Source of the DNA: a virus | Lineage: Duplodnaviria; Caudoviricetes | Length of the DNA stretch: 64,000 nucleotides | IMG/VR virus record: IMGVR_UViG_3300015606_001334 | Span: 96,001 to 160,000 of that record | Reading direction: 5' to 3' (one strand) | Part shown: piece by piece, positions 23,892 to 60,592 of the stretch | Layout of the letters: each line of letters opens with the position of its first letter | Position numbering within the stretch: position 1 is the first letter of the stretch | Program-made: the position numbers and the translations under genes | Notes under the pieces: generated by a model | Database searches by the model: none | Told to the model about the DNA's origin: nothing | What the model saw: the letters and a program-made list of their open reading frames with translations, nothing else

Positions 23892-23951
23892 TCATTTTAC
23901 TCCAAACTCCTTTAGATTTATTTATAGAATGAGGAACAAAATGTTACCGGG

Positions 23952-24023
23952 TGGGTAATGTGGGGATCGAACCCACGACCCGCGGATTTAGAATCCGCTG
24001 CTCTACCATTGAGCTAATTACCC
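23952..24023 (-). tRNA. amber suppressor tRNA (anticodon CUA), Lys-like body
   Basis: cloverleaf GGGTAAT..GCGGA TTCTAAA TCCGC..GTTCGATC; no encoded CCA. Confidence 0.85.
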
Positions 24024-32960: not shown

Positions 32961-33082
32961 CAACAAAATTTGCAGACCGAGAGAAGTAATTTCGGCATCC
33001 GTGAGGATTTAGGCTACTACAACCTTACCGTTTTTGTTTTCACCAAATTGAAGTAGATAGATAACAGTCCACAGGTCGGTTG
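32961..33082 (-). ncRNA. divergent GGTTATC-module RNA
   Basis: CAACCG..GGACTGTTATC / CGGTCT..TTTTGTTG. Confidence 0.5.
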
Positions 33083-40504: not shown

Positions 40505-40649
40505 TGGTGGAGCCGACGGGTCTCGAACCACGTACGTCGCAAGGACACCGGTTTTACCTTAGATAACCATTTTCTGTCGGCTTATTTCTAAGCAAAAGTT
40601 TGAAAACGACTTTTTTGACCGGCGCGTCTACCAATTTCGCCACGACTCC
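40505..40649 (-). ncRNA. Leu-type tRNA scaffold with GGTTATC module in the anticodon arm
   Basis: Leu-type D arm and variable arm, T arm, CCA; CCGGT[~65 nt]ACCGG. Confidence 0.75.
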
Positions 40650-40652
40650 ATT

Positions 40653-40770
40653 CGGTGGGGAGGAGTGGGTTTGAACCACTGACCTTCAGCGGAATACTGA
40701 TCACCTCAAGGCGGCCGCCAGATGAATGTTCTTCCAAACGCTGATGCTCTACCAACTGAGCTACCTCCCC
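40653..40770 (-). ncRNA. tRNA scaffold with anticodon loop replaced by a ~50-nt extension
   Basis: canonical acceptor, D and T arms; TCAGC[...]GCTGA. Confidence 0.7.
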
Positions 40771-41430: not shown

Positions 41431-41558
41431 TGGTTGAGGCGGAAGGAATCGAACCTTCTCTAGTCGGATATGAGTCGAGATAACCATCCACGAGCGGCGT
41501 ATCTCTACGCAAAAGTTGCAGGCGATGTTTTCCTGTGCTGCCAGTACACTACGCCTCA
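41431..41558 (-). ncRNA. tRNA(CAT) scaffold with GGTTATC module inserted in the 5' strand of the anticodon stem
   Basis: TGAGGCG/CGCCTCA-ACCA; ...GGATGGTTATC TCGA CTCATAT. Confidence 0.75.
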
Positions 41559-42623: not shown

Positions 42624-42751
42624 TGGTGCCCCGACCCGGGATCGAACCGGGATGACCGAAGTCGACAGATTTTCTTAAGCGGGCTCAGTCACTAAGTTTC
42701 AGAACCCGCTTCGTGAAAGTCTGTTGCGTCTACCAATTTCGCCATCGGGGC
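42624..42751 (-). ncRNA. tRNA-Leu(TAA) with ~43-nt hairpin inserted in the anticodon
   Basis: ACAGA CTT[TCACG..TTAAG]AAAA TCTGT; Leu body, CCA. Confidence 0.75.
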
Positions 42752-45011: not shown

Positions 45012-45152
45012 GGTCTCCCTGGATGGACTCGAACCATCGGCCCCCATAATTCCGCAGCTTAAGATGAGTTGCTACCCATCTCCGAAAATTCCATTTCGAT
45101 TTGGTCCTTTACCATGAGCGGTGGAGAGCTCTACCAACTGAGCTACAGGAAG
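45012..45152 (-). ncRNA. tRNA scaffold with ~70-nt structured anticodon replacement
   Basis: canonical D arm AGCTCAGTTGGTAGAGC and T arm GATGG TTCGAGT CCATC. Confidence 0.65.
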
Positions 45153-45989: not shown

Positions 45990-46096
45990 GACTAACAAAA
46001 GTAGAAATTGACTAAAGTTGCATCCAGCATTCAAGAGGAGAATCGAACTCCTAACTCCATTTTCGCAGAATAGATAACCAATTTCAAGCGGTTAGC
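45990..46096 (-). ncRNA. GGTTATC-module permuted tRNA mimic (GCG loop, T arm)
   Basis: CTAACCG..GAAATTGGTTATC; ATT CTGCGAA AAT; AGGAG TTCGATT CTCCT. Confidence 0.7.
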
Positions 46097-46098
46097 TT

Positions 46099-46174
46099 TG
46101 GCTCTGTAGGGTGGGCTCGAACCACCGACCGACGGATTAACAGTCCGTTGCTCTACCAACTGAGCTACTACAGA
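46099..46174 (-). tRNA. tRNA-Asn(GTT)
   Basis: ACGGA CTGTTAA TCCGT. Confidence 0.92.
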
Positions 46175-46211
46175 ATAGAAAGGAACTTTGTTAAGAGTTC
46201 CTTTTTGTTAA

Positions 46212-46481
46212 TTAAGCGCTTTCAGAGCCGCTCTTAACGAATGCATCTAGCGACTTTTGAGCTGCTTCGCTAAATGGGGTGACTTCGATTACTTGAGACC
46301 AAGTAACTGCACCAAGATCAACAGATTCACCAACTGCAACGGTGACTTCGTCGAATGGATAAGAAGTCTTATCAGCTTCGTCGACTACTGGACCGTCGCC
46401 GTTTGCGACGTTGTAAACCTTACCAGACTTTTTGAATTGAACCTTGACTGGATTTTGTGCTTCGTTTTTGAAAACAGACAT
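46212..46481 (-). CDS. hypothetical late protein
   Basis: AGGAGA RBS, TATAAATA upstream, terminator downstream. Confidence 0.65.
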   Translation of the reverse strand: MSVFKNEAQNPVKVQFKKSGKVYNVANGDGPVVDEADKTSYPFDEVTVAVGESVDLGAVTWSQVIEVTPFSEAAQKSLDAFVKSGSESA

Positions 46482-46554
46482 TTTATTTCTCCTATAAGAA
46501 AACAACATGTTGTGGGTAACCAACAATGCTATTTATATTTTTCGGAGATTCATT

Positions 46555-46630
46555 TGGTGCCCCAGGACTAGAATTGAACTGTCGACCCCTTCCTTACAAG
46601 GGAAGTGCTCTACCACTGAGCTACAAGGGC
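46555..46630 (-). tRNA. tRNA-Thr(TGT)
   Basis: CTTCC CTTGTAA GGAAG. Confidence 0.88.
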
Positions 46631-46706
46631 ATTTGCGATTTAAACCTTGAAGGCCTCCATTTCTGGACGTTACTACAAACCTTAAGATGACGCATGAGTT
46701 ATTTAT

Positions 46707-46791
46707 TGGTGCCCATCGCCGGACTCGAACCGGCACTCCTTTCGGAAGTAGATTTTGAGTCTACCGCGTCTACCAATTCCGCCAGACGGGC
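46707..46791 (-). tRNA. tRNA-Leu(CAA)
   Basis: GTAGA CTCAAAA TCTAC. Confidence 0.92.
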
Positions 46792-46923
46792 AAGGCGTTT
46801 ACTTAACCGTATGATCCAAGATGCCATCCTTCAAAGGTGGCCTATGTCAGTCACGATTTCTACGGTCTTCTCTGACTCAGCTGTCATACTCACTGCAGAA
46901 TTTTGTATGACAAACAAGTAAAC

Positions 46924-46998
46924 TGGTGCCCAAGGTTGGAATCGAACCTACGACCTCTTTCGTACCAAGAAAGCGTTCTACCACTGAACTACGAGGGC
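46924..46998 (-). tRNA. tRNA-Thr(GGT)
   Basis: CTTTC TTGGTAC GAAAG. Confidence 0.9.
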
Positions 46999-47008
46999 AT
47001 AAAATGTT

Positions 47009-47095
47009 TGGTGCTCTAGGAGGGACTCGAACCCTCACGTCCTTTCGGACACAACGACCTCAACGTTGCGCGTCTACCAATTCCGCCACCAGAGC
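47009..47095 (-). tRNA. tRNA-Leu(GAG)
   Basis: CAACG TTGAGGT CGTTG. Confidence 0.92.
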
Positions 47096-47099
47096 ATTT

Positions 47100-47202
47100 T
47101 GGCCCATCGCGAAGGATTTGAACCTTCATTTAACCTGGACGGAATCGAACCGTCTCGTTGGGATTCGCGCGAATAGTACCCAGGGAACCAACCCACGATG
47201 GA
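47100..47202 (-). ncRNA. tRNA-like RNA with two T arms
   Basis: GACGG TTCGATT CCGTC and GAAGG TTCAAAT CCTTC inside a CCATCG/CGATGG acceptor ending GCCA. Confidence 0.55.
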
Positions 47203-47515
47203 TGGTGGAAACTGGCGAGGGGCTCATTCCCCACAACCTTCCAATCACGAAGTCTTATTAAGCTACAACACTCCACTTAATGGACTGGCCGGTCCAAGAA
47301 GCTTCATCATGTTGGGAGGACTTGTTTCCTCCACCTCGGCGTCTTCTGAGCTATAATAATTTATTAGAGCTACCACCTTGGAGCGCTCTCGAATGCATGG
47401 TATCCAGCCCCTACATTCTACACTCTTCTGCTTTAGACTCCGTGACCTACTCAGTACCAATGGCTGGCCCATTGTACTTTTATCCCGAAGAACGGATATA
47501 ATCAGTCACAGTTTC

Positions 47516-47595
47516 CGGCGCTGAAGGTAGGATTCGAACCTACAACCCCCACACAATGAGGCAGGAGCTCTTACCAAACGAGACTTACATCAGCA
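47516..47595 (-). tRNA. atypical or pseudo tRNA (CAT-containing 8-nt loop)
   Basis: good T arm and acceptor; irregular D and anticodon arms. Confidence 0.45.
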
Positions 47596-47715
47596 AAATC
47601 GAAAGGTATCAGTTACCAGGCTGATCTTTATTCATTAGTTCAGCATCTCTCGCATCCACTTTTTCAGGGGAGAGCAACCTTCCTAACTATTCGCCTAAAT
47701 TTCTTAGGACCTTTC

Positions 47716-47800
47716 TGGTGCCCTGGGAGGGACTCGAACCCACACGCCTTGCGGCGCCAGAACCTAAATCTGGTGCGTCTACCAATTTCGCCACCAGGGC
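47716..47800 (-). tRNA. tRNA-Leu(TAG)
   Basis: CCAGA TTTAGGT TCTGG. Confidence 0.92.
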
Positions 47801-47876
47801 AATTCATTATGGCTAACTTCGGATCCTTGGCCTTCGGCGTTCTAGTAGTTAGCAACGTACCCGTCATAATGAAATT

Positions 47877-47962
47877 TGGAGCGCAGGGTGTGATTCGAAC
47901 ACACGTGGGATTTCTCCGAGAGGTTTGCAATCTCCCGCCTTCGACCGCTTGGCTACCTGCGC
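47877..47962 (-). tRNA. tRNA-Cys(GCA) with long variable arm
   Basis: loop TTGCAAA, U73, variable arm CGGAGAAATCCC. Confidence 0.8.
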
Positions 47963-48243
47963 AAAGTGTACGTGGTGACTAGCCTTAAGTATCATGCCTG
48001 ATACAATTGGTGCCGTACGAACCATTCGTAATTTTTACATCTTCGATCAGATGGCTACCATCAGCGGTTTGCCTTTCTGCCAGTCGAATAACCCAGAGAT
48101 TGGTCAAATGGGCTTCTTTTGATTATCGATTCACGAAGAGAAAAACGGCTTTCATACGATGCAAGCAGCACGCCTAGCGACTCAGTCCTAGGAGAGGTCC
48201 CTTAACCTGGAAATCTAGGAGATTCACTTAGTCAAAATGAATC

Positions 48244-48321
48244 TGGCCTCGCGAGAGGGATTCGAACCCCCGACCCGCTGCTTAGAAGGCAGCTGCTCTA
48301 GTCCAACTGAGCTACCGCGAG
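48244..48321 (-). tRNA. tRNA-Arg(TCT)
   Basis: GCTGC CTTCTAA GCAGC. Confidence 0.92.
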
Positions 48322-48504
48322 AAAAACAATTCTTAGCCCTGGAATTACTTATGAGAATCCGCATAGTTCCAGTTTAACGGCCCTCACTAAGAATTGGGCG
48401 CATATGGAGATCATTGAAATCGTCTATCACCGTGCTTAGTTTCGTACTGAAGCGTACGTCTTTAGACTTATCGGCACCGTCACCCTTCCGGCTCATATGC
48501 GTAG

Positions 48505-48764
48505 TCATTGACAAAATTTAGATATCGGATATTCAGAGAAAAGCGAACTTAACTCCTAGTTAGATGGGTCAGTCACCTAACAACCGCCTACTTATTCTTA
48601 GTAGGAAATATCGACGTTATTCTATGTCGACAATAATCAAATTGTAATCGAGGAGGAGCAAGCTCCTTGTTCCCTCTGTTGTCCGTCAATTTGAAAAAAT
48701 AGACAACATCTCAATTAAGGACGATCATTAGCTATTAAGATAACCAATATCTCGCGGTCAATGA
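48505..48764 (-). ncRNA. GGTTATC-module RNA, long form
   Basis: TCATTGACCG..GATATTGGTTATC / CCGATATC..TTTTGTCAATGA. Confidence 0.7.
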
Positions 48765-48765
48765 T

Positions 48766-48841
48766 TGGTGGAACTGAAGGGAATCGAACCCTCAACATCT
48801 AGCTTGCAAAGCTAGCGCTCTCCCAATTGAGCTACAGCCCC
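48766..48841 (-). tRNA. tRNA-Ala(TGC)
   Basis: G3.U70, loop TTTGCAA. Confidence 0.92.
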
Positions 48842-49014
48842 AAAGTAAATGATATTTAATGTTCCAGCTTTTGGCATACTCTCTTAGGCTTCAGACCCAG
48901 GGATGTCAGCCCTTTTGCGCCTGCCAGGTTTCTTGCATGAACTTTTGACAGATTTTCTCATGCTCAAGGAATCCACCCAAACCAGCGTGTAACTTAGAGG
49001 GCTTCCATATCATT

Positions 49015-49100
49015 TGGTGCACCAGGTAGGATTCGAACCTACTCACCCAGAGGGAACAGATTTACAGTCTGCCGTAACTCTCCAACTTTACCGCTAGTGC
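49015..49100 (-). tRNA. tRNA-Tyr(GTA)
   Basis: GCAGA CTGTAAA TCTGT, long variable arm. Confidence 0.9.
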
Positions 49101-49104
49101 AATA

Positions 49105-49225
49105 CAATCAAACAAAGATAAAAATCGAATTGCTGCGCCCAATTTCTTGCAGCTCATAAATCCGAAGACCTATGATGGAGTCGAACCATTCATCTGATAG
49201 ATAATCGATTTTCGACGGTTTGATT
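49105..49225 (-). ncRNA. YrlA/Y-RNA-like permuted tRNA mimic with GGTTATC-type module
   Basis: closing helix, then T arm (ATGG TTCGACT CCAT), acceptor closed by UUCG, D-like arm. Confidence 0.75.
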
Positions 49226-49310
49226 GGTGGTCTATCTAGGTAACGATCCTAGCCAACCCGAAGGTATCAGTTTTACAGACTGCGCGGCGTCCTTAGCCGA
49301 ATACTAGACC
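49225..49310 (-). tRNA. tRNA-Tyr(GTA), atypical
   Basis: loop CTGTAAA; non-canonical T loop ATCGTTA. Confidence 0.65.
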
Positions 49311-49488
49311 TTGAAACTTAAAAATGCTCTTTTGTTACTTGATACTCAGGAGAAGGATATTCTTCCTTCTTAGCTTTCAAAAGCTCATTTGCTTCTGCTA
49401 CAGTGAGACACTTACGAGTAAAAACCGTAGTGTATCCCTTCATAACCACAATGTGCCAAAACTTCATGCTTACTTCTCCCTTAATAAT

Positions 49489-49562
49489 TGGTTGCGGGCA
49501 GGGGAATCGAACCACCTTCCCAACTGGCTTATGAGACCAGCGTCAGACCTTCTGAACCCGCA
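49489..49562 (-). tRNA. tRNA(CAT) Met/Ile2, atypical D arm
   Basis: CTGGT CTCATAA GCCAG, CCA. Confidence 0.7.
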
Positions 49563-49568
49563 ATTGAG

Positions 49569-49645
49569 AGATAAACAAAGGAGTGGAAATTGGGGATTGG
49601 ATCAAAGTGGAAGTTTGAGATAACCAATTTCCTTTCGGTTTATCT
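49569..49645 (-). ncRNA. minimal GGTTATC-module RNA presenting a Gly(TCC) anticodon stem-loop
   Basis: GGAAATTGGTTATC TCAAA CTTCCAC TTTGA..CCAATTTCC. Confidence 0.7.
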
Positions 49646-49735
49646 GGCGGAGGCGGTGAGATTCGAACTCACGGACCTTTTTAGGGATCGGTAGTTTTCA
49701 AGACTACTGCGTTAAACCAGCTCTGCCACGCCTCC
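49645..49735 (-). tRNA. tRNA-Ser(TGA)
   Basis: GTAGT CTTGAAA ACTAC, long variable arm, G73. Confidence 0.92.
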
Positions 49736-50068
49736 ATTTTTACGATTCCTCGACTTGTAAGTACTCAACTGTGAATCACAATTGCTACAGACAAATCTTA
49801 GATTTTCTAATCTATTGTCGTTGTTAACACCGTTGATGTGGCCAAGAATTAATGGCATAGGTTTCCCTTGCCATTCAGGACCAATTCCACAGCATGCGCA
49901 ACGATATTCGATTAACTTTCCATCTAATATTCGACTCTTTACATGATGTCTAGCGAGAGTCGAATTTTCAGAAAAAACTTCTTCATCCGTCTTTCTTATC
50001 GACCGATGATACTCTGTTAATCCTGGTTTCTTTCCTTTATTCCAAGGGACACTTCCTTTTGATGCCAT
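49712..50068 (-). CDS. HNH endonuclease
   Basis: CACCG, HINGVNNDNRLENLRFVCSNC; stop lies inside tRNA-Ser. Confidence 0.85.
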   Translation of the reverse strand: MASKGSVPWNKGKKPGLTEYHRSIRKTDEEVFSENSTLARHHVKSRILDGKLIEYRCACCGIGPEWQGKPMPLILGHINGVNNDNRLENLRFVCSNCDSQLSTYKSRNRKNGGVAELV

Positions 50069-50128
50069 AATCTGCTAAAAGTTATTTCAACAGATGTATT
50101 TATTGCACCAGTTTGTGAAACAATAGGG

Positions 50129-50192
50129 AATCAAACAAAAAGCGATGATCGACGCTTTTCCAATAAGATAACCAATCATCAACGGTTTGATT
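50129..50192 (-). ncRNA. minimal GGTTATC-module RNA (TGG loop)
   Basis: AATCAAACCG..GATTGGTTATC..GTCGATC..TTTTTGTTTGATT. Confidence 0.65.
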
Positions 50193-50283
50193 TGGCTCCG
50201 GCCTCAGGGATCGAACCTGATTGAAACCTTATGAGGGCCTCCTGGTTAACAGCCAGTTGCTCTACCAATTGAGCTACGCCGGA
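50193..50283 (-). tRNA. tRNA-Asn(GTT) whose variable arm is a second anticodon-like hairpin (CAT)
   Basis: CTGG CTGTTAA CCAG then GAGGCC CTCATAA GGTTTC. Confidence 0.75.
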
Positions 50284-50289
50284 ATTGTA

Positions 50290-50401
50290 AACTAACAAAA
50301 ATAGATATCGAGTAATGCGGCACCCAGCTTCCAAATCGGGAATCGAACCCAATCCTTCGTTTTTTCCATAAAAAGAGATAACCGATATCAAGCGGTTAGT
50401 T
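50290..50401 (-). ncRNA. GGTTATC-module permuted tRNA mimic (ATG loop, T arm)
   Basis: CTAACCG..GATATCGGTTATC; TTT TTATGGA AAA; GGG TTCGATT CCC. Confidence 0.7.
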
Positions 50402-50476
50402 GGTTGCGGGAGTTGGACTTGCACCAACCTTGGCCAGCTTATGAGACTGGTGATGAACTTTCTCCTCTATCCCGCA
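50401..50476 (-). tRNA. tRNA(CAT), atypical
   Basis: CCAGT CTCATAA GCTGG; T loop TGCAAGT; CCA. Confidence 0.65.
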
Positions 50477-50483
50477 ATCAAAA

Positions 50484-50599
50484 GATAAACAAAACTAGTA
50501 ATCGATGAACCTCTTTCGAGGGTGAAGGGCTTGAACCTTCTAACTTGTGGATGATTAGTCCTCTCGTATTATCCGATAACCAATTACTCACGGTTTATC
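50484..50599 (-). ncRNA. GGTTATC-module permuted tRNA mimic (AAT loop), paralog of 32749..32873
   Basis: GGA CTAATCA TCC; GAAGG TTCAAGC CCTTC. Confidence 0.7.
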
Positions 50600-50981
50600 A
50601 ATTACTTCTTCCTTTTCCTCCTTTAGCTGACATATTCCTATGCCATTCTTTGAACTCTTCAGGAGAAAGAGAATTCTTCATTTTTGTTATGTATGAAATT
50701 CGTTTATTCTGACGATAATCATCTCTCAAATTATCTGAGTATGTTCCCCAATACAAATGATTTGGATTTGAGCATTTACCATTTCCACAGCCATGACAAC
50801 AAATAACTTTCTTACCTGTCGGTATTGTGGTTTTAAGATGGTGTGCTAATAACCCTCTAAATTCTACAGAGCTATATCCACCAATTTCAATACAAGGCTC
50901 GTCAAGTTTAAGGTGCTTCTGTCTATCTTCTACAGGAAGCTCAATATACTCAAGAATTTCTACGAAACTGGTAGGAGACAT
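50598..50981 (-). CDS. HNH (His-Cys box-like) homing endonuclease; start uncertain
   Basis: CCHGCGNGKCSNPNHLYWGTYSDNL.D. Confidence 0.75.
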   Translation of the reverse strand: MSPTSFVEILEYIELPVEDRQKHLKLDEPCIEIGGYSSVEFRGLLAHHLKTTIPTGKKVICCHGCGNGKCSNPNHLYWGTYSDNLRDDYRQNKRISYITKMKNSLSPEEFKEWHRNMSAKGGKGRSN

Positions 50982-51043
50982 GGGACTCGAACCCACAACC
51001 TCGACATTAAAAGTGTCTTGCTCTACCATTGAGCTAATCTCCC
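50969..51043 (-). tRNA. tRNA-Lys(TTT)
   Basis: loop CTTTTAA, CCA. Confidence 0.9.
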
Positions 51044-51169: not shown

Positions 51170-51298
51170 CGGTGCAGTCTGAAGGAATCGAACCTCCGTC
51201 TTCGCCTTGTAATGGATAACCATTTTCAAGCGGTTCATTTTCATGAACAAATTCAGAAAACGATGTTTATCGCTGTTCTACCACTGAACTAAGACTGC
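51170..51298 (-). ncRNA. tRNA-Val(TAC) scaffold with GGTTATC module inserted near position 29/30
   Basis: removing the insert restores a CGCC/GGCG stem and ATTACAA loop. Confidence 0.75.
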
Positions 51299-51354
51299 AA
51301 AAATGAATCTGGCCTAAATACCATTAGGTTGGTACAACTTTACCGCAGATTCAA

Positions 51355-51483
51355 GGTGGAGAGTAGAGGATTCGAACCTCTGACCACGTGCTTAACAGGC
51401 AGATAACCAATTTCGGCCGGTTTGAGCAAACAAACAAAGAGTGAAATCGACATTTACGTGCTCTACCACTGAGCTAACTCCCC
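51355..51483 (-). ncRNA. tRNA(GTT) scaffold with GGTTATC module inserted near position 29/30; G3.U70 acceptor
   Basis: removing the insert restores CGTGC CTGTTAA GCACG. Confidence 0.78.
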
Positions 51484-52313: not shown

Positions 52314-52399
52314 TGGCGGAGACGGTGGGAATCGAACCCACTGAACCTTTCGGTCCTACACCTTAGCAGGGTGCTGCATTACCGGCCTGCCCCGTCTCC
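52314..52399 (-). tRNA. tRNA-Ser(GCT)
   Basis: GCACC CTGCTAA GGTGT, G73, CCA. Confidence 0.9.
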
Positions 52400-53055
52400 A
52401 ATTTTCTTCCTGCTTTCCAACCTTGATTTTCCCAAGATTGAAGTTCATCTTTCTTTATCTTCTTCGCTTCGGAACCATTGTTTATCCAACAAGTACCAAA
52501 TTGAGAATTCTTTTCACCTCTTACTGCTTCCTTCATCGAAGAACTAATTTTTATCTTAGTTTCCTCTTTATGGGTTTTTCCTGTCCAATCTCCAGAAGGA
52601 ACCTTCCCATACTTTTTCATCTTACCTTCTATGCCACGACGATGCCGCTCTTTTGCGGCCTCTGATCCTTTACTAAATATCTCAGCTCTTTTACTTCCAC
52701 CAGCTGAAGACCTAGCGATTTGAATCCTGTTTCGCTCTACATCATCTGAATTGATATGATCCCAACCACCTTCTCCACCAAACTTCAAGTTCATGCAGAG
52801 CGGGTGTTTCAACATCTCCTCGTTTACTACTTCAGCTTCTCTCTTCTTGAGTTCTTCTCTTGAAGGTAGAAACTCTAAAATCTCAAACTTGTGGTTTTCC
52901 AACCCATATTTCCGGATCGAATAACCTAACCTCTTTCCACTTCCTACATAACCATCTTCCAAGTTATCCGTTGAGTGCATCCCAACGTAGAACTTTTCAT
53001 TCAGAAGATTTGTGGTCCTATAAATGAAGTGGTACTTCTTTTGTTTCCTTGGCAT
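52363..53055 (-). CDS. GIY-YIG (Seg-like) homing endonuclease
   Basis: FIYRTTN..NEKFYVGMHST..DGYVGSG; NUMOD3-like GKTHKEETK; paralog of 36459..37124. Confidence 0.9.
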   Translation of the reverse strand: MPRKQKKYHFIYRTTNLLNEKFYVGMHSTDNLEDGYVGSGKRLGYSIRKYGLENHKFEILEFLPSREELKKREAEVVNEEMLKHPLCMNLKFGGEGGWDHINSDDVERNRIQIARSSAGGSKRAEIFSKGSEAAKERHRRGIEGKMKKYGKVPSGDWTGKTHKEETKIKISSSMKEAVRGEKNSQFGTCWINNGSEAKKIKKDELQSWENQGWKAGRKLETGQAGNAAPC

Positions 53056-55492: not shown

Positions 55493-56143
55493 TTAGTGAT
55501 GATGTAAATTTTTGAAGATCAACGCACCATACATGGCTTCGTCGTGGAATTTATAATCGCTCTCGTCGAGATCTCTGTCATCGTCATAGCTAGTATCTCT
55601 ACTCATCCATTTGTTACGTGCTCTACGCCAGAGGTAAGCATCAGTGTCACCGTCAACATCACCGTCATCCCAACTAACAGGTTTACGGTCACCAATTCGT
55701 TTGTATTTAAACAGCTCGGTGTCGTTGAATTGAGCGAATACTTTTTCACCTTCTTCTTTTGTCAGCTCAAACTTTGAGCCTCTGAAAGTAATTATGAACA
55801 TTCCTGGCTTGGTTGACTTTCTCACCACGATTTCTGGATTATTTGGCGGGATGTAAGCTTCTTCCCAATTACCGTCAAATCCAGCGACGAACAGCTCAAC
55901 CTTTTCTTTTTCGGCAAAATCGAGTATTTCAGAAGCATCAGCGAGACGTTTACCGAATTCGTCGAAAAGAGACGACTTTCCGTTCATGAACTCCCCTTTA
56001 TGGGCCTCCATTGTGCCATCACTGTAATCATAATCGATATCGTCTTCAATTTCTTTTCCAGCCTTGATCAGGAGGGAAAGAAGAGCATGTTCCTGCTGGA
56101 CAGAAGCATCTTCATTAATCGATAAAAGGGAAGAGATTTTCAT
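55493..56143 (-). CDS. putative internal head protein
   Basis: MKISSLLSINE leader; TAAATA promoter inside a hairpin at 56161-56195. Confidence 0.65.
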   Translation of the reverse strand: MKISSLLSINEDASVQQEHALLSLLIKAGKEIEDDIDYDYSDGTMEAHKGEFMNGKSSLFDEFGKRLADASEILDFAEKEKVELFVAGFDGNWEEAYIPPNNPEIVVRKSTKPGMFIITFRGSKFELTKEEGEKVFAQFNDTELFKYKRIGDRKPVSWDDGDVDGDTDAYLWRRARNKWMSRDTSYDDDRDLDESDYKFHDEAMYGALIFKNLHHH

Positions 56144-56199
56144 AATTCCAAACAAAAGGAAAGGGTACTAATAGTGTTTATTTATTAGTACCCTTGAGA

Positions 56200-60007: not shown

Positions 60008-60029
60008 TTTATTGTTCTTATTATGGAAG

Positions 60030-60402
60030 TGAGGGTGGGGAAATGTTTCTGTTGCCAAGTACAACTTCCCCAAAAACTCCGACAGCTTTACCTATTTAAA
60101 GGATCAAGCAGCCACGCGGTAACTTTCGTCGTTTGCGTTTAACTTTTTTCTTCCACTAACGCAGGTTGCTCTCGAGTCGTTCCAATCTTGTTACTCATGC
60201 CATGTCGAGACCTGTCGACCCCATTAAAAAGAAACCTAGTATGACGATCACGTTCTCTTACTCTTTCGTCATCCTGCCTTGCCTTCTCATAGGTAAGATC
60301 GAAGAACGATCCATCTTACCTCGGGCGACCTCCTTGCGAGAGGACTTGGTTTCTTTTTGGTGGAGTCGAGGGGAATCGAACCCCTTTCCACAACACTTTC
60401 CC
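60030..60402 (-). ncRNA. ssrA: circularly permuted two-piece tmRNA; tag ANDESYRVAA*
   Basis: acceptor piece ..GGGGTTCGATTCCCCTCGACTCCACCA (ends 60358) lies upstream of the coding piece starting GGGGTCG (60222); G3.U70; tag ORF 60104..60136. Confidence 0.88.
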
Positions 60403-60592
60403 AATCAAAGTCTCAGGTATTTCTACCCATACGACTATAAAAACTCTCGGTCATTCTTTCGATCGTCTTCCCATTTATCCCAGTTGTAATGAAAGATGGA
60501 ATAAATCCAACCACCAACACAACCAATGATTGTTACAACAACGAGAAGTTTTTCTACTTGATCAACCATGAAAAGAATTATATCACTATTTA

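What the first reader, a model, noticed from the sequence alone, without database searches (positions are those of the whole stretch)
51170..51483. tRNAs interrupted at the same non-canonical site (anticodon stem near 29/30) by a ~55-nt structured insert
Seen: deleting the insert restores a perfect GTT anticodon arm (CGTGC CTGTTAA GCACG) in 51355..51483 and a Val(TAC) arm in 51170..51298. The CAT tRNA at 41431 is interrupted on the same stem strand. The inserts are far too short for group I/II introns. The GTT copy has a G3.U70 pair, the Ala identity element, which conflicts with its Asn anticodon. Inference: either a new protein-spliced tRNA intron class in a phage, or unspliced tRNA chimeras.
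Basis: partly seen in the sequence, partly recalled or inferred. Interest (0 to 1): 0.82.

Follow-up and report, generated by a model that had tools for sequence, protein, structure and literature searches.

The report
Phage tRNAs carrying a Ro60-type handle
Two tRNA genes of a 360-kb jumbo phage are split by a 55-base hairpin that is probably not an intron but the docking handle of the phage's Y-RNA-like small RNAs, presumably for its Ro60-like protein; this makes them tRNA/Y-RNA hybrids that still display an anticodon arm, a layout I did not find described.

Summary
Rfam's tRNA model spans 51357-51483 and 51173-51298 (minus strand). Each gene carries a 55-nt insert in the 5' strand of the anticodon stem, and deleting it in silico gives ARAGORN-callable tRNA-Asn(GTT) and tRNA-Val(TAC).

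The insert is one recurring module: AAAACAU, 7-9 bp covarying helix, internal loop with UUU/CCG, capped helix, GGUUAUC.
- The module occurs 12 times in this tRNA array: 4 inside tRNA bodies and 8 as the closing stem of stand-alone RNAs in Y RNA/YrlA order, four of which have a T-loop.
- The phage encodes a full Ro60/Rsr protein (TROVE plus Ro60-vWA).
- A model trained only on 15 foreign copies finds exactly the four tRNA-embedded sites in the window.
- Such hybrids occur in 17 phage records. Ro60 is present in 14 of the 17, including all five records that are at least 97% complete.
- I found no splicing endonuclease, RtcB, bulge-helix-bulge motif or ribozyme.

Best reading (0.62): these are stable tRNA/Y-RNA hybrids bound by phage Ro60, and are not spliced. 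The split anticodon stem covaries and is kept in most copies, which remains unexplained. Splicing is not excluded, because no RNA data could be obtained.

Earlier notes of this scan describe similar hybrids on other DNA (e1-3669910, e1-3140236, e1-5353751).

The parts
51357..51483 (-). tRNA-shaped hybrid 'E': acceptor GGGGAGT/ACTCTCC (G3.U70, A73), D and T arms, anticodon arm with loop CTGTTAA (GTT) split by the handle; 3' end encodes CC but not CCA
   Evidence: Rfam tRNA 49.5 bits; ARAGORN tRNA-Asn after deletion; parse
51402..51457 (-). Handle inside hybrid E: AAAUGU, b' CGATTTC, ACUCUUU, a' GTTTG, loop, a CAAAC, CG GCC, b GAAATTG, GTTATC
   Evidence: Model R1 45.4 bits, E 1.3e-7; stems
51173..51298 (-). 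tRNA-shaped hybrid 'D': acceptor GCAGTCT/AGACTGC, loop ATTACAA (TAC), anticodon stem split at 29/30; 3' end encodes CC
   Evidence: Rfam tRNA 46.9 bits; ARAGORN tRNA-Val after deletion
51215..51270 (-). Handle inside hybrid D (b' CGTTTTC / b GAAAATG; a' GTTCAT, GAAA loop, a ATGAAC)
   Evidence: Model R1 53.8 bits, E 1.9e-9
41431..41558 (-). Third stem-inserted hybrid (CAT loop CTCATAT, 31x39 mismatch, CCA encoded); handle at 41479-41532
   Evidence: Model R1 54.4 bits; parse
40505..40649 (-). Class II (Leu-type) body in which the handle (40562-40616) sits in the anticodon loop of an intact 5-bp stem CCGGT/ACCGG; no usable anticodon; CCA encoded
   Evidence: Model R1 49.3 bits; sequence
45991..50599 (-). 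Seven stand-alone RNAs closed by the same handle in Y RNA order: 50599-50484, 50401-50290, 50192-50129, 49645-49569, 49226-49105, 48764-48505, 46096-45991. Four have a T-loop in the cargo. 49226-49105 has the full YrlA layout: T arm, capped acceptor-like stem, D arm
   Evidence: Structural scan finds 8 hits on the minus strand of the window, 0 elsewhere in the 359,550-bp genome and 0 in 20 shuffles
32961..33082 (-). Eighth stand-alone copy of the handle in Y RNA order

Best explanation
The two genes encode stable tRNA/Y-RNA hybrids, not intron-containing tRNAs. Each is a complete tRNA frame: 7-bp acceptor stem, D arm, T arm, and CC or CCA at the 3' end. From the 5' strand of its anticodon stem, after nt 27-29, projects a 55-nt hairpin. 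That hairpin is the docking handle shared by all the Y-RNA-like small RNAs of this phage. Its layout is a covarying 7-9 bp helix, an internal loop whose conserved ...C-CG / UUU-G... resembles the bulged Ro60-binding helix of Y RNAs, a second capped helix, and an invariant GGUUAUC.

Inferred mechanism: the transcripts are cut out of the tRNA array by the ordinary tRNA end-processing enzymes and completed by a CCA-adding enzyme. The phage's own Ro60/Rsr ring protein binds the handle. The tRNA body, including its displayed anticodon arm, is the effector end that brings Ro60 to (or competes for) proteins that recognise tRNAs, such as modification enzymes, synthetases, anticodon nucleases or repair enzymes.

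Shown here: the anatomy, the family, the covariation and the co-occurrence with Ro60. Inferred: Ro60 binding, absence of splicing, and the biological role.
For: (1) Same module, two topologies. There are 4 tRNA-embedded copies and 8 copies closing stand-alone RNAs in Y RNA order. All lie on one strand of one 18-kb stretch, with none elsewhere in the genome and none in 20 shuffles. Four stand-alone copies carry a T-loop, and 49226-49105 has the YrlA layout.
(2) The phage encodes a full Ro60: TROVE 138.6 bits plus Ro60-vWA 191.2 bits. It is 39-44% identical to annotated phage Ro-like proteins.
(3) The family is conserved. Model R1 found 33 sites in 17 of 19 records.
(4) Co-occurrence. TROVE is present in 13 of 16 foreign records with hybrids, and the 3 without it are 14-45% complete fragments. 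It is present in all 5 records that are at least 97% complete, counting the window's own genome, and absent from the 2 chance-hit control records. The base rate is 377 of 50,697 phage records.
(5) Structure is under selection. Helix b is paired in 129 of 133 cells across 14 distinct sequences. RNAalifold finds 20 of 29 pairs with compensatory changes.
(6) Relatives have loop-replaced versions with no anticodon at all (the window copy at 40505-40649; G003 109625-109740; L147, L018, L140). These can only work as hybrids.
(7) The hybrids are redundant as decoders. Intact Asn-GTT (two genes) and Val-TAC genes lie in the same array.
(8) The bodies do not match the anticodons. E has the Ala identity set G3.U70/A73 with GUU. 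One body lineage (acceptor GCCGATG) carries CTT, CTT, GTT, TAT and ATC.
(9) No splicing machinery or motif was found.
Against: No experiment or RNA-seq data was available, so neither Ro60 binding nor the absence of splicing is shown. Rfam's YrlA and Y_RNA models do not detect the handle: the best YrlA score in the genome is 29 bits against a cut-off of 69. The published YrlA motif GNCGAAN0-1G is not conserved here. The link to Ro60 therefore rests on co-occurrence, topology and a resemblance of the C-CG/UUU bulge. rsr lies about 80-100 kb from the array in this genome, not next to it. The hybrids may all come from related jumbo phages, so the co-occurrence counts are not independent events. 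Most stem-inserted copies keep a well-paired split anticodon stem (25/27 split pairs plus 45/48 hairpin-side pairs), U33 in 15/15 and a purine at position 37 in 11/15. That is what an intron-containing functional tRNA would also show. The phage also has two Rnl2-type RNA ligases.
Confidence: 0.62

Rival explanations
1. A new kind of tRNA intron. The handle is cut out at the A-rich 5' linker and the UAU 3' linker. The two halves stay in register through the split anticodon stem as a nicked duplex, and a phage Rnl2-type ligase seals the nick to give working tRNA-Asn and tRNA-Val. Ro60 might guide or chaperone the reaction.
For: Deletion restores ARAGORN-callable tRNAs. The split stem is kept and covaries in 15 curated hybrids, and U33 is present in 15/15. 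CCA is encoded in most relatives. Two Rnl2-family ligases, one next to a CCA-adding-type nucleotidyltransferase, are present. A nick in duplex RNA is the known preferred substrate of T4 Rnl2 (from my own knowledge, not tested here).
Against: There is no candidate endonuclease: PF01974 is absent. RtcB is absent. The junction has no bulge-helix-bulge geometry: it is a three-way junction with a 5-6-nt and a 3-nt linker. No ribozyme or intron family matches. The same handle closes 8 stand-alone RNAs, where there is nothing to splice. Loop-replaced hybrids have no anticodon. The anticodons are redundant with intact genes. The bodies and anticodons are mismatched: G3.U70 with GUU, and one acceptor lineage with five different anticodons. 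Several relatives have C33, 8-9-nt loops or a pyrimidine at 37.
Confidence: 0.1
2. The handle is a real, selected extra arm, but its partner is not Ro60. It docks some other phage or host protein or RNA, and the co-occurrence with Ro60 only reflects shared ancestry of these jumbo phages.
For: Rfam Y RNA/YrlA models do not recognise the handle. rsr is far from the array in this genome. The records with hybrids may form one clade, and 3 of 16 foreign records with hybrids show no TROVE.
Against: The 3 TROVE-negative records are 14-45% complete fragments. TROVE sits in the same 24-50-kb fragment as the hybrid in several records, including a GC-rich contig of only 50 kb (G009). The stand-alone copies have the YrlA layout. 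The C-CG/UUU-G bulged helix resembles the Ro60 site described in PMC4201824.
Confidence: 0.18
3. These are dead tRNA genes disrupted by a mobile hairpin repeat (MITE- or REP-like insertion), with no function.
For: The module is repeated 12 times in one region. Homing endonuclease genes are scattered through the array. D and E lack an encoded terminal A.
Against: Acceptor stems are perfect 7/7 and D and T arms are intact in nearly all copies. Compensatory changes occur in every helix. The insertion geometry is the same across different tRNA bodies and 17 records. There are no copies outside the tRNA array or on the other strand.
Confidence: 0.04

Closest known systems
YrlA (Y RNA-like A; Rfam RF02553; Chen et al. 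2014, PMC4201824; Wang et al. 2018, 10.1101/312249)
   Same: It has a Ro60-associated small RNA made of a protein-binding stem plus a tRNA-like domain with D and T arms. It is found in bacteria and phages that encode Ro60. Eight stand-alone RNAs in this array have the same order of parts.
   Different: YrlA ends in the Ro60 stem, has a closed acceptor stem, no free CCA and no anticodon loop. D and E are the circular permutation of that layout: open acceptor ends with CC(A), the handle capped by a loop, and a complete anticodon arm retained beside it. The Rfam model does not reach its cut-off, and the handle sequence (CCG...GGUUAUC) differs from GNCGAAN0-1G.
Metazoan and Deinococcus Y RNAs (Ro60-binding bulged helix GGUCCGA/UUGAC; Stein et al. 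2005 and Green et al. 1998 as cited in PMC4201824 and PMC12135203)
   Same: There is a helix with a bulged C followed by G.U next to a U-rich opposite strand (here ..C-CG / UUU-G..), flanked by covarying stems. Vertebrate Y RNAs also carry GUUAUC-like sequence after the upper stem (from memory).
   Different: There is no detectable Rfam Y_RNA match, and binding is untested. In those Y RNAs the module sits at the RNA termini. In D and E it is internal and capped.
Thermus phage phiLo Ro60 with Yrl1/Yrl2 (PMC12135203), and the Ro60-like gp130 of phage Bas63 next to its tRNA genes (PMC11482910)
   Same: These are phage-encoded Ro60 proteins with phage-encoded partner RNAs. The Bas63 authors suspected that some annotated tRNAs are Y RNAs.
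   Different: Those RNAs are ordinary stem-bulge-stem Y RNAs beside the Ro60 gene. No tRNA frame with an embedded handle and a preserved anticodon arm was described.
'Enigmatic introns' in Lak megaphage tRNAs (Devoto et al. 2019, PMC6784885)
   Same: These are over-long phage tRNA genes that become callable tRNAs when an internal piece is removed, with an unknown removal mechanism.
   Different: They were predicted at intron positions by eukaryotic tRNAscan settings, and one encodes a tRNA-like sequence. No link to Ro60 or a repeated handle was reported. I did not compare the sequences.
Archaeal bulge-helix-bulge tRNA introns at non-canonical positions
   Same: These are short protein-spliced inserts that can lie in the anticodon stem (for example near 29/30).
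   Different: They need two 3-nt bulges separated by a 4-bp helix, plus an EndA-type endonuclease and RtcB. None of these is present here.

Membership tests
tRNA (Rfam RF00005) | Score above the gathering cut-off over the full model | tested here: met
   49.5 and 46.9 bits against a cut-off of 29, model positions 1-71
tRNA (Rfam RF00005) | Contiguous anticodon arm in the gene, as in bacterial and phage tRNAs | tested here: not met
   A 55-nt insert lies in the 5' strand of the stem. ARAGORN does not call the genes until it is deleted
YrlA (RF02553) | Rfam covariance model reaches its gathering score (69 bits) | tested here: not met
   The best score in the whole genome is 29.1 bits, on other tRNA-like sites, and nothing lies on D or E
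YrlA (RF02553) | Ro60/Rsr gene in the same genome, normally within 4 kb on the same strand | tested here: inconclusive
   A full Ro60 is present on the same strand, but about 80-100 kb away in this genome. It is closer in some relatives (about 10 kb from the array in G003; on the same 24-50-kb fragment in G012, G016 and G009)
YrlA (RF02553) | RNA ends form the Ro60 stem; acceptor-like stem closed; no anticodon loop | tested here: not met
   D and E have open 7-bp acceptor stems and keep an anticodon loop. The eight stand-alone copies do meet this feature
YrlA (RF02553) | GNCGAAN0-1G motif near the 5' strand of the stem | tested here: not met
   The handle consensus is (A/G)ACCG-N3-N5-UG-GUUAUC. 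Only the E copy happens to contain GCCGAAA
Y RNA in the broad sense (Ro60 partner RNA) | Bound by Ro60 through a conserved bulged helix | not testable with these tools
   Only indirect evidence is available: co-occurrence with TROVE in 14 of 17 records and a C-CG/UUU-G bulged helix seen by inspection
Bulge-helix-bulge (archaeal/eukaryal) tRNA intron | Two 3-nt bulges on opposite strands separated by a 4-bp helix at the splice sites | tested here: not met
   The junction is a three-way junction: a 5-6-nt A-rich linker, a 9-bp helix, and a UAU linker
Bulge-helix-bulge (archaeal/eukaryal) tRNA intron | Splicing endonuclease (PF01974) and RtcB-type ligase available | tested here: not met
   Neither is found in the phage genome. 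The host is unknown
Group I / group II self-splicing intron | Catalytic core recognisable; length of about 200 nt or more; in tRNAs, located in the anticodon loop | tested here: not met
   There is no Rfam intron or ribozyme match at the gathering score or at E up to 1. The insert is 55 nt and lies in the stem

The most novel reading that the evidence does not exclude
The handle is a removable element. It is excised from the anticodon stem, and the nicked duplex left behind is sealed by one of the phage's Rnl2-type ligases, possibly with Ro60 holding the RNA. That would be a protein-dependent tRNA intron class in a bacterial virus, and would also release a free Y-RNA-like hairpin.
Probability: 0.1. 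Interest if true: 0.9.

Novelty: new variant of a known kind. Interest (0 to 1): 0.62.

Why it matters
Ro60 and its Y RNAs are conserved from bacteria to humans, yet what the tRNA-like end of bacterial Y RNAs does is still open. These RNAs are real tRNA frames with open CC(A) ends and, in most copies, a canonical anticodon arm, joined to the handle shared by the phage's Y-RNA-like RNAs. They recur in at least 17 large phage records, nearly always together with Ro60.

If Ro60 binds them, this would tie Ro60 directly to tRNA-recognising processes such as charging, modification, anticodon cleavage and repair during infection. It would also give defined constructs for binding, aminoacylation and nuclease-decoy assays.

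There is a practical point as well. Such genes will be missed by tRNA finders, or mis-annotated as intron-containing tRNAs, in phage genomes.

Tried and rejected
- Rfam YrlA model on Mycobacterium phage Catera's Ro60 neighbourhood, meant to give a reference alignment of the Ro60 site: no hit at the gathering threshold.
- Rfam YrlA model on the phage's own genome: only sub-threshold tRNA-like hits.
- First DNA pattern, CCGNNNGANAWTGGTTATC, in IMG/VR: mostly single chance matches, not informative. It was replaced by the permuted-topology pattern.
- Relatives sought through a neighbouring protein (window 55493-56155): none found. A radical-SAM protein against the phage records also gave no match.
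- The two close Ro60 relatives (L121, L122) are fragments without the tRNA array.
No cellular copy of this handle subtype was seen, but the scan was truncated.
- A GAUAA/UUAUC helix seen in copy D is not conserved in the other copies and was dropped as a structural element.
- MAFFT/RNAalifold could not align the variable anticodon region, so the split stem was scored with an anchored parse and a swapped-partner control instead.
- The review PMC10870794 is not held.

Full report
**Setting.** The window is bases 96,001-160,000 of a 359,550-bp IMG/VR virus record rated complete. All the features discussed lie on the minus strand, inside an array of about 30 tRNA genes. The array also holds a permuted tmRNA, an amber-suppressor tRNA and several homing-endonuclease ORFs.

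**Observation.**
- Rfam's tRNA model matches 51357-51483 (49.5 bits) and 51173-51298 (46.9 bits) over its whole length, but the matches are 127 and 126 nt long.
- ARAGORN does not call either gene.
- Reading the sequence, each gene has a perfect 7-bp acceptor stem, normal D and T arms, and a 55-nt insert in the 5' strand of the anticodon stem.
- Removing the insert in silico gives 72- and 71-nt sequences that ARAGORN calls tRNA-Asn(GTT) and tRNA-Val(TAC).
- The site is 29/30 in the Val gene. It is 28/29 or 29/30 in the Asn gene, where a repeated T makes it ambiguous. It is 27/28 in a third gene with a CAT loop at 41431-41558.
- G3.U70 with A73 in the GTT gene is real.

**What the insert is.** The two inserts share one architecture:
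- an A-rich linker ending in CAU;
- a helix 'b', 7 bp and extendable to 9 bp;
- an internal loop with N4-UUU on one side and CG-N3 on the other;
- a second helix 'a' whose closing G-C is followed by the CG, giving ..C-CG opposite UUU-G..;
- a capping loop, often GNRA;
- an invariant GGUUAUC.

The same two strands occur elsewhere in the array in the opposite order (a, CCG, b, GUUAUC, cargo, b', UUU, a'), where they close stand-alone RNAs. A structural scan finds eight such copies on the minus strand of the window. It finds none on the other strand, none elsewhere in the genome and none in 20 shuffled genomes. Four of the eight have a T-loop in the cargo. The copy at 49226-49105 has the full order handle, T arm, capped acceptor-like stem, D arm, handle, which is the published layout of the bacterial Y RNA YrlA (PMC4201824; 10.1101/312249). 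The 'insert' in the two tRNAs is thus a circularly permuted copy of the handle of this phage's Y-RNA-like RNAs. This lead came from earlier notes on the same window, and I then tested it.

**Ro60.** The phage encodes a 535-aa protein with a TROVE domain (138.6 bits) and a Ro60-type vWA domain (191.2 bits). It is 39-44% identical to proteins annotated as Ro-like in Gordonia, Mycobacterium and Sinorhizobium phages. The gene lies 80-100 kb from the array.

**Family in other phages.**
- A pattern specific to the permuted topology found 20 IMG/VR loci. Eighteen of them are tRNA frames carrying the handle.
- A covariance model built only from 15 foreign copies finds exactly four sites in the window, at E from 1e-7 to 1e-9. 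These are the two inserts of the finding, the CAT gene, and a Leu-type body at 40505-40649.
- The same model finds 33 sites in 17 of 19 records searched.
- TROVE is present in 13 of the 16 foreign records with hybrids. The three records without it are 14-45% complete fragments.
- All five records that are at least 97% complete, including the window's own genome, have both the hybrid and TROVE. Two chance-hit control records have neither.
- For comparison, 377 of 50,697 phage records hold a Ro60 relative.

These counts are not phylogenetically independent, although one record is a GC-rich 50-kb contig quite unlike the others.

**Structure under selection.**
- Helix b is paired in 129 of 133 cells over 19 copies with 14 distinct sequences. 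Pairing b with the b' of other copies gives 5.4 of 7.
- RNAalifold on 15 full-length hybrids recovers the acceptor, D, T, b and a helices. Twenty of its 29 pairs show compensatory double changes.

**Two types of hybrid.**
- In the stem-inserted type the handle leaves the anticodon stem after nt 27-29, and the last C of GGUUAUC usually resumes the stem. D, E, the CAT gene and most relatives are of this type.
- Across 15 curated copies of this type, the split part of the stem is paired 25/27 and the hairpin part 45/48. U33 is present in 15/15 and a purine at 37 in 11/15. The swapped-partner control gives 61% pairing.
- In the loop-replaced type a full 5-bp anticodon stem carries the handle in place of the loop, and there is no anticodon. 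Examples are 40505-40649 in the window, G003 109625-109740, L147, L018 and L140.
- Over 25 distinct copies, an automatic parse gives 12 canonical arms, 9 odd ones (C33, pyrimidine 37, 8-9-nt loops) and 4 with no 7-nt-loop parse.

**Intron or hybrid?** Evidence against an intron:
- The genome has no tRNA-splicing endonuclease and no RtcB.
- No intron or ribozyme family matches, even at E up to 1.
- The junction is a three-way junction with a 5-6-nt and a 3-nt linker, not a bulge-helix-bulge.
- The same handle closes eight RNAs that have nothing to splice.
- Loop-replaced relatives can only function unspliced.
- The anticodons of D, E and the CAT gene duplicate intact genes in the same array.
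- Bodies and anticodons do not match. E carries the alanine identity pair with an Asn anticodon, and differs from the phage's own tRNA-Asn genes, which have G73.
- One body lineage with the acceptor GCCGATG carries CTT, CTT, GTT, TAT and ATC.

Evidence that leaves an intron possible:
- The preserved, covarying anticodon arm.
- The encoded CCA in most relatives.
- Two Rnl2-type RNA ligases, one beside a CCA-adding-type nucleotidyltransferase just upstream of the window. A nick in the anticodon stem would be a plausible substrate for such a ligase; this is my inference.
- No RNA data could be obtained.

**Verdict.** The most likely reading (0.62) is that these are stable tRNA/Y-RNA hybrids: tRNA frames with open ends that carry a Ro60-type handle as an extra arm on the anticodon stem. 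The anatomy, family, covariation and co-occurrence are shown. Ro60 binding, non-splicing and function are inferred. Why most copies keep an anticodon arm is unexplained. A role as tethered bait or mimic for anticodon-recognising proteins is a reasonable guess but is untested.

**Comparison with the literature.** Phage Ro60 with Y-like RNAs is known (PMC4201824, PMC12135203, PMC7824862). The authors of PMC11482910 suspected that some phage 'tRNAs' are Y RNAs. YrlA is explicitly described as lacking a free CCA end and an anticodon loop (10.1101/312249). I found no paper describing a tRNA frame with an embedded handle and a retained anticodon arm, but the library is incomplete. Earlier notes of this scan report similar hybrids on other DNA. 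I therefore rate this as a new variant of a known kind.

Noticed in passing
window 60013-60450 (-): Phage-encoded two-piece (permuted) tmRNA, tag peptide ANDESYRVAA. Rfam tmRNA_permuted scores 94.6 bits and alpha_tmRNA 55 bits. This may hint at an alphaproteobacterial host.
   Followed up: no
window 23950-24023 (-): tRNA with anticodon CTA, which ARAGORN labels 'Pyl'; that is, an amber-suppressor-type tRNA. The relative G003 has two of them.
   Followed up: no
window 40656-40770, 42627-42751, 45014-45152 (-): Three more over-long tRNA frames (Rfam tRNA 59.4, 43.6 and 38.3 bits) with 43-70-nt structured inserts inside the anticodon loop. The handle model R1 does not match them, so their cargo is different and unexplained. 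The 42627 copy could be read as Leu CTT|..|AAAA, with the insert at 34/35.
   Followed up: partly
window 50193-50283 (-): A 91-nt tRNA-Asn(GTT) with a long extra arm whose loop reads CTCATAA, the same as the CAT anticodon loops nearby.
   Followed up: no
window 52363-53055, 50598-51029, 49712-50068 (-): ORFs with weak GIY-YIG/NUMOD3, His-Me and HNH homing-endonuclease matches, interspersed among the tRNA and Y-like genes.
   Followed up: no
G000:C1:93590-95714 (L133:3-2127), just upstream of the window: An Rnl2-family RNA ligase (89 bits) lies next to a PolyA_pol-head/CCA-adding-type nucleotidyltransferase (85.6 bits). A second Rnl2-type ligase with an OB domain lies at G000 86,520-87,716.
   Followed up: partly
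window 41431-41558; L139, L151/L153, G004:C1:211664-211719: Of the six hybrids with a CAT anticodon, the four with a CTCATAx loop have a mismatch at stem pair 31-39 (AxC, AxA, AxA, UxC), giving an effective 9-nt loop. The other two (L143, L150; loop ATCATCC) have a fully paired stem.
   Followed up: partly
G004:C1:211862-211916 (L306): A class II body with a long variable arm and loop ATGTAAA (Tyr GTA) carries the same handle at 29/30. The handle therefore sits at the same place in quite different tRNA bodies.
   Followed up: partly
L138, L142, L149 (T arm region): Several hybrids of the GCCGATG lineage appear to have one extra nucleotide pair around the T stem (a 6-bp T stem, or an extra nt before the acceptor 3' strand).
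   Followed up: no
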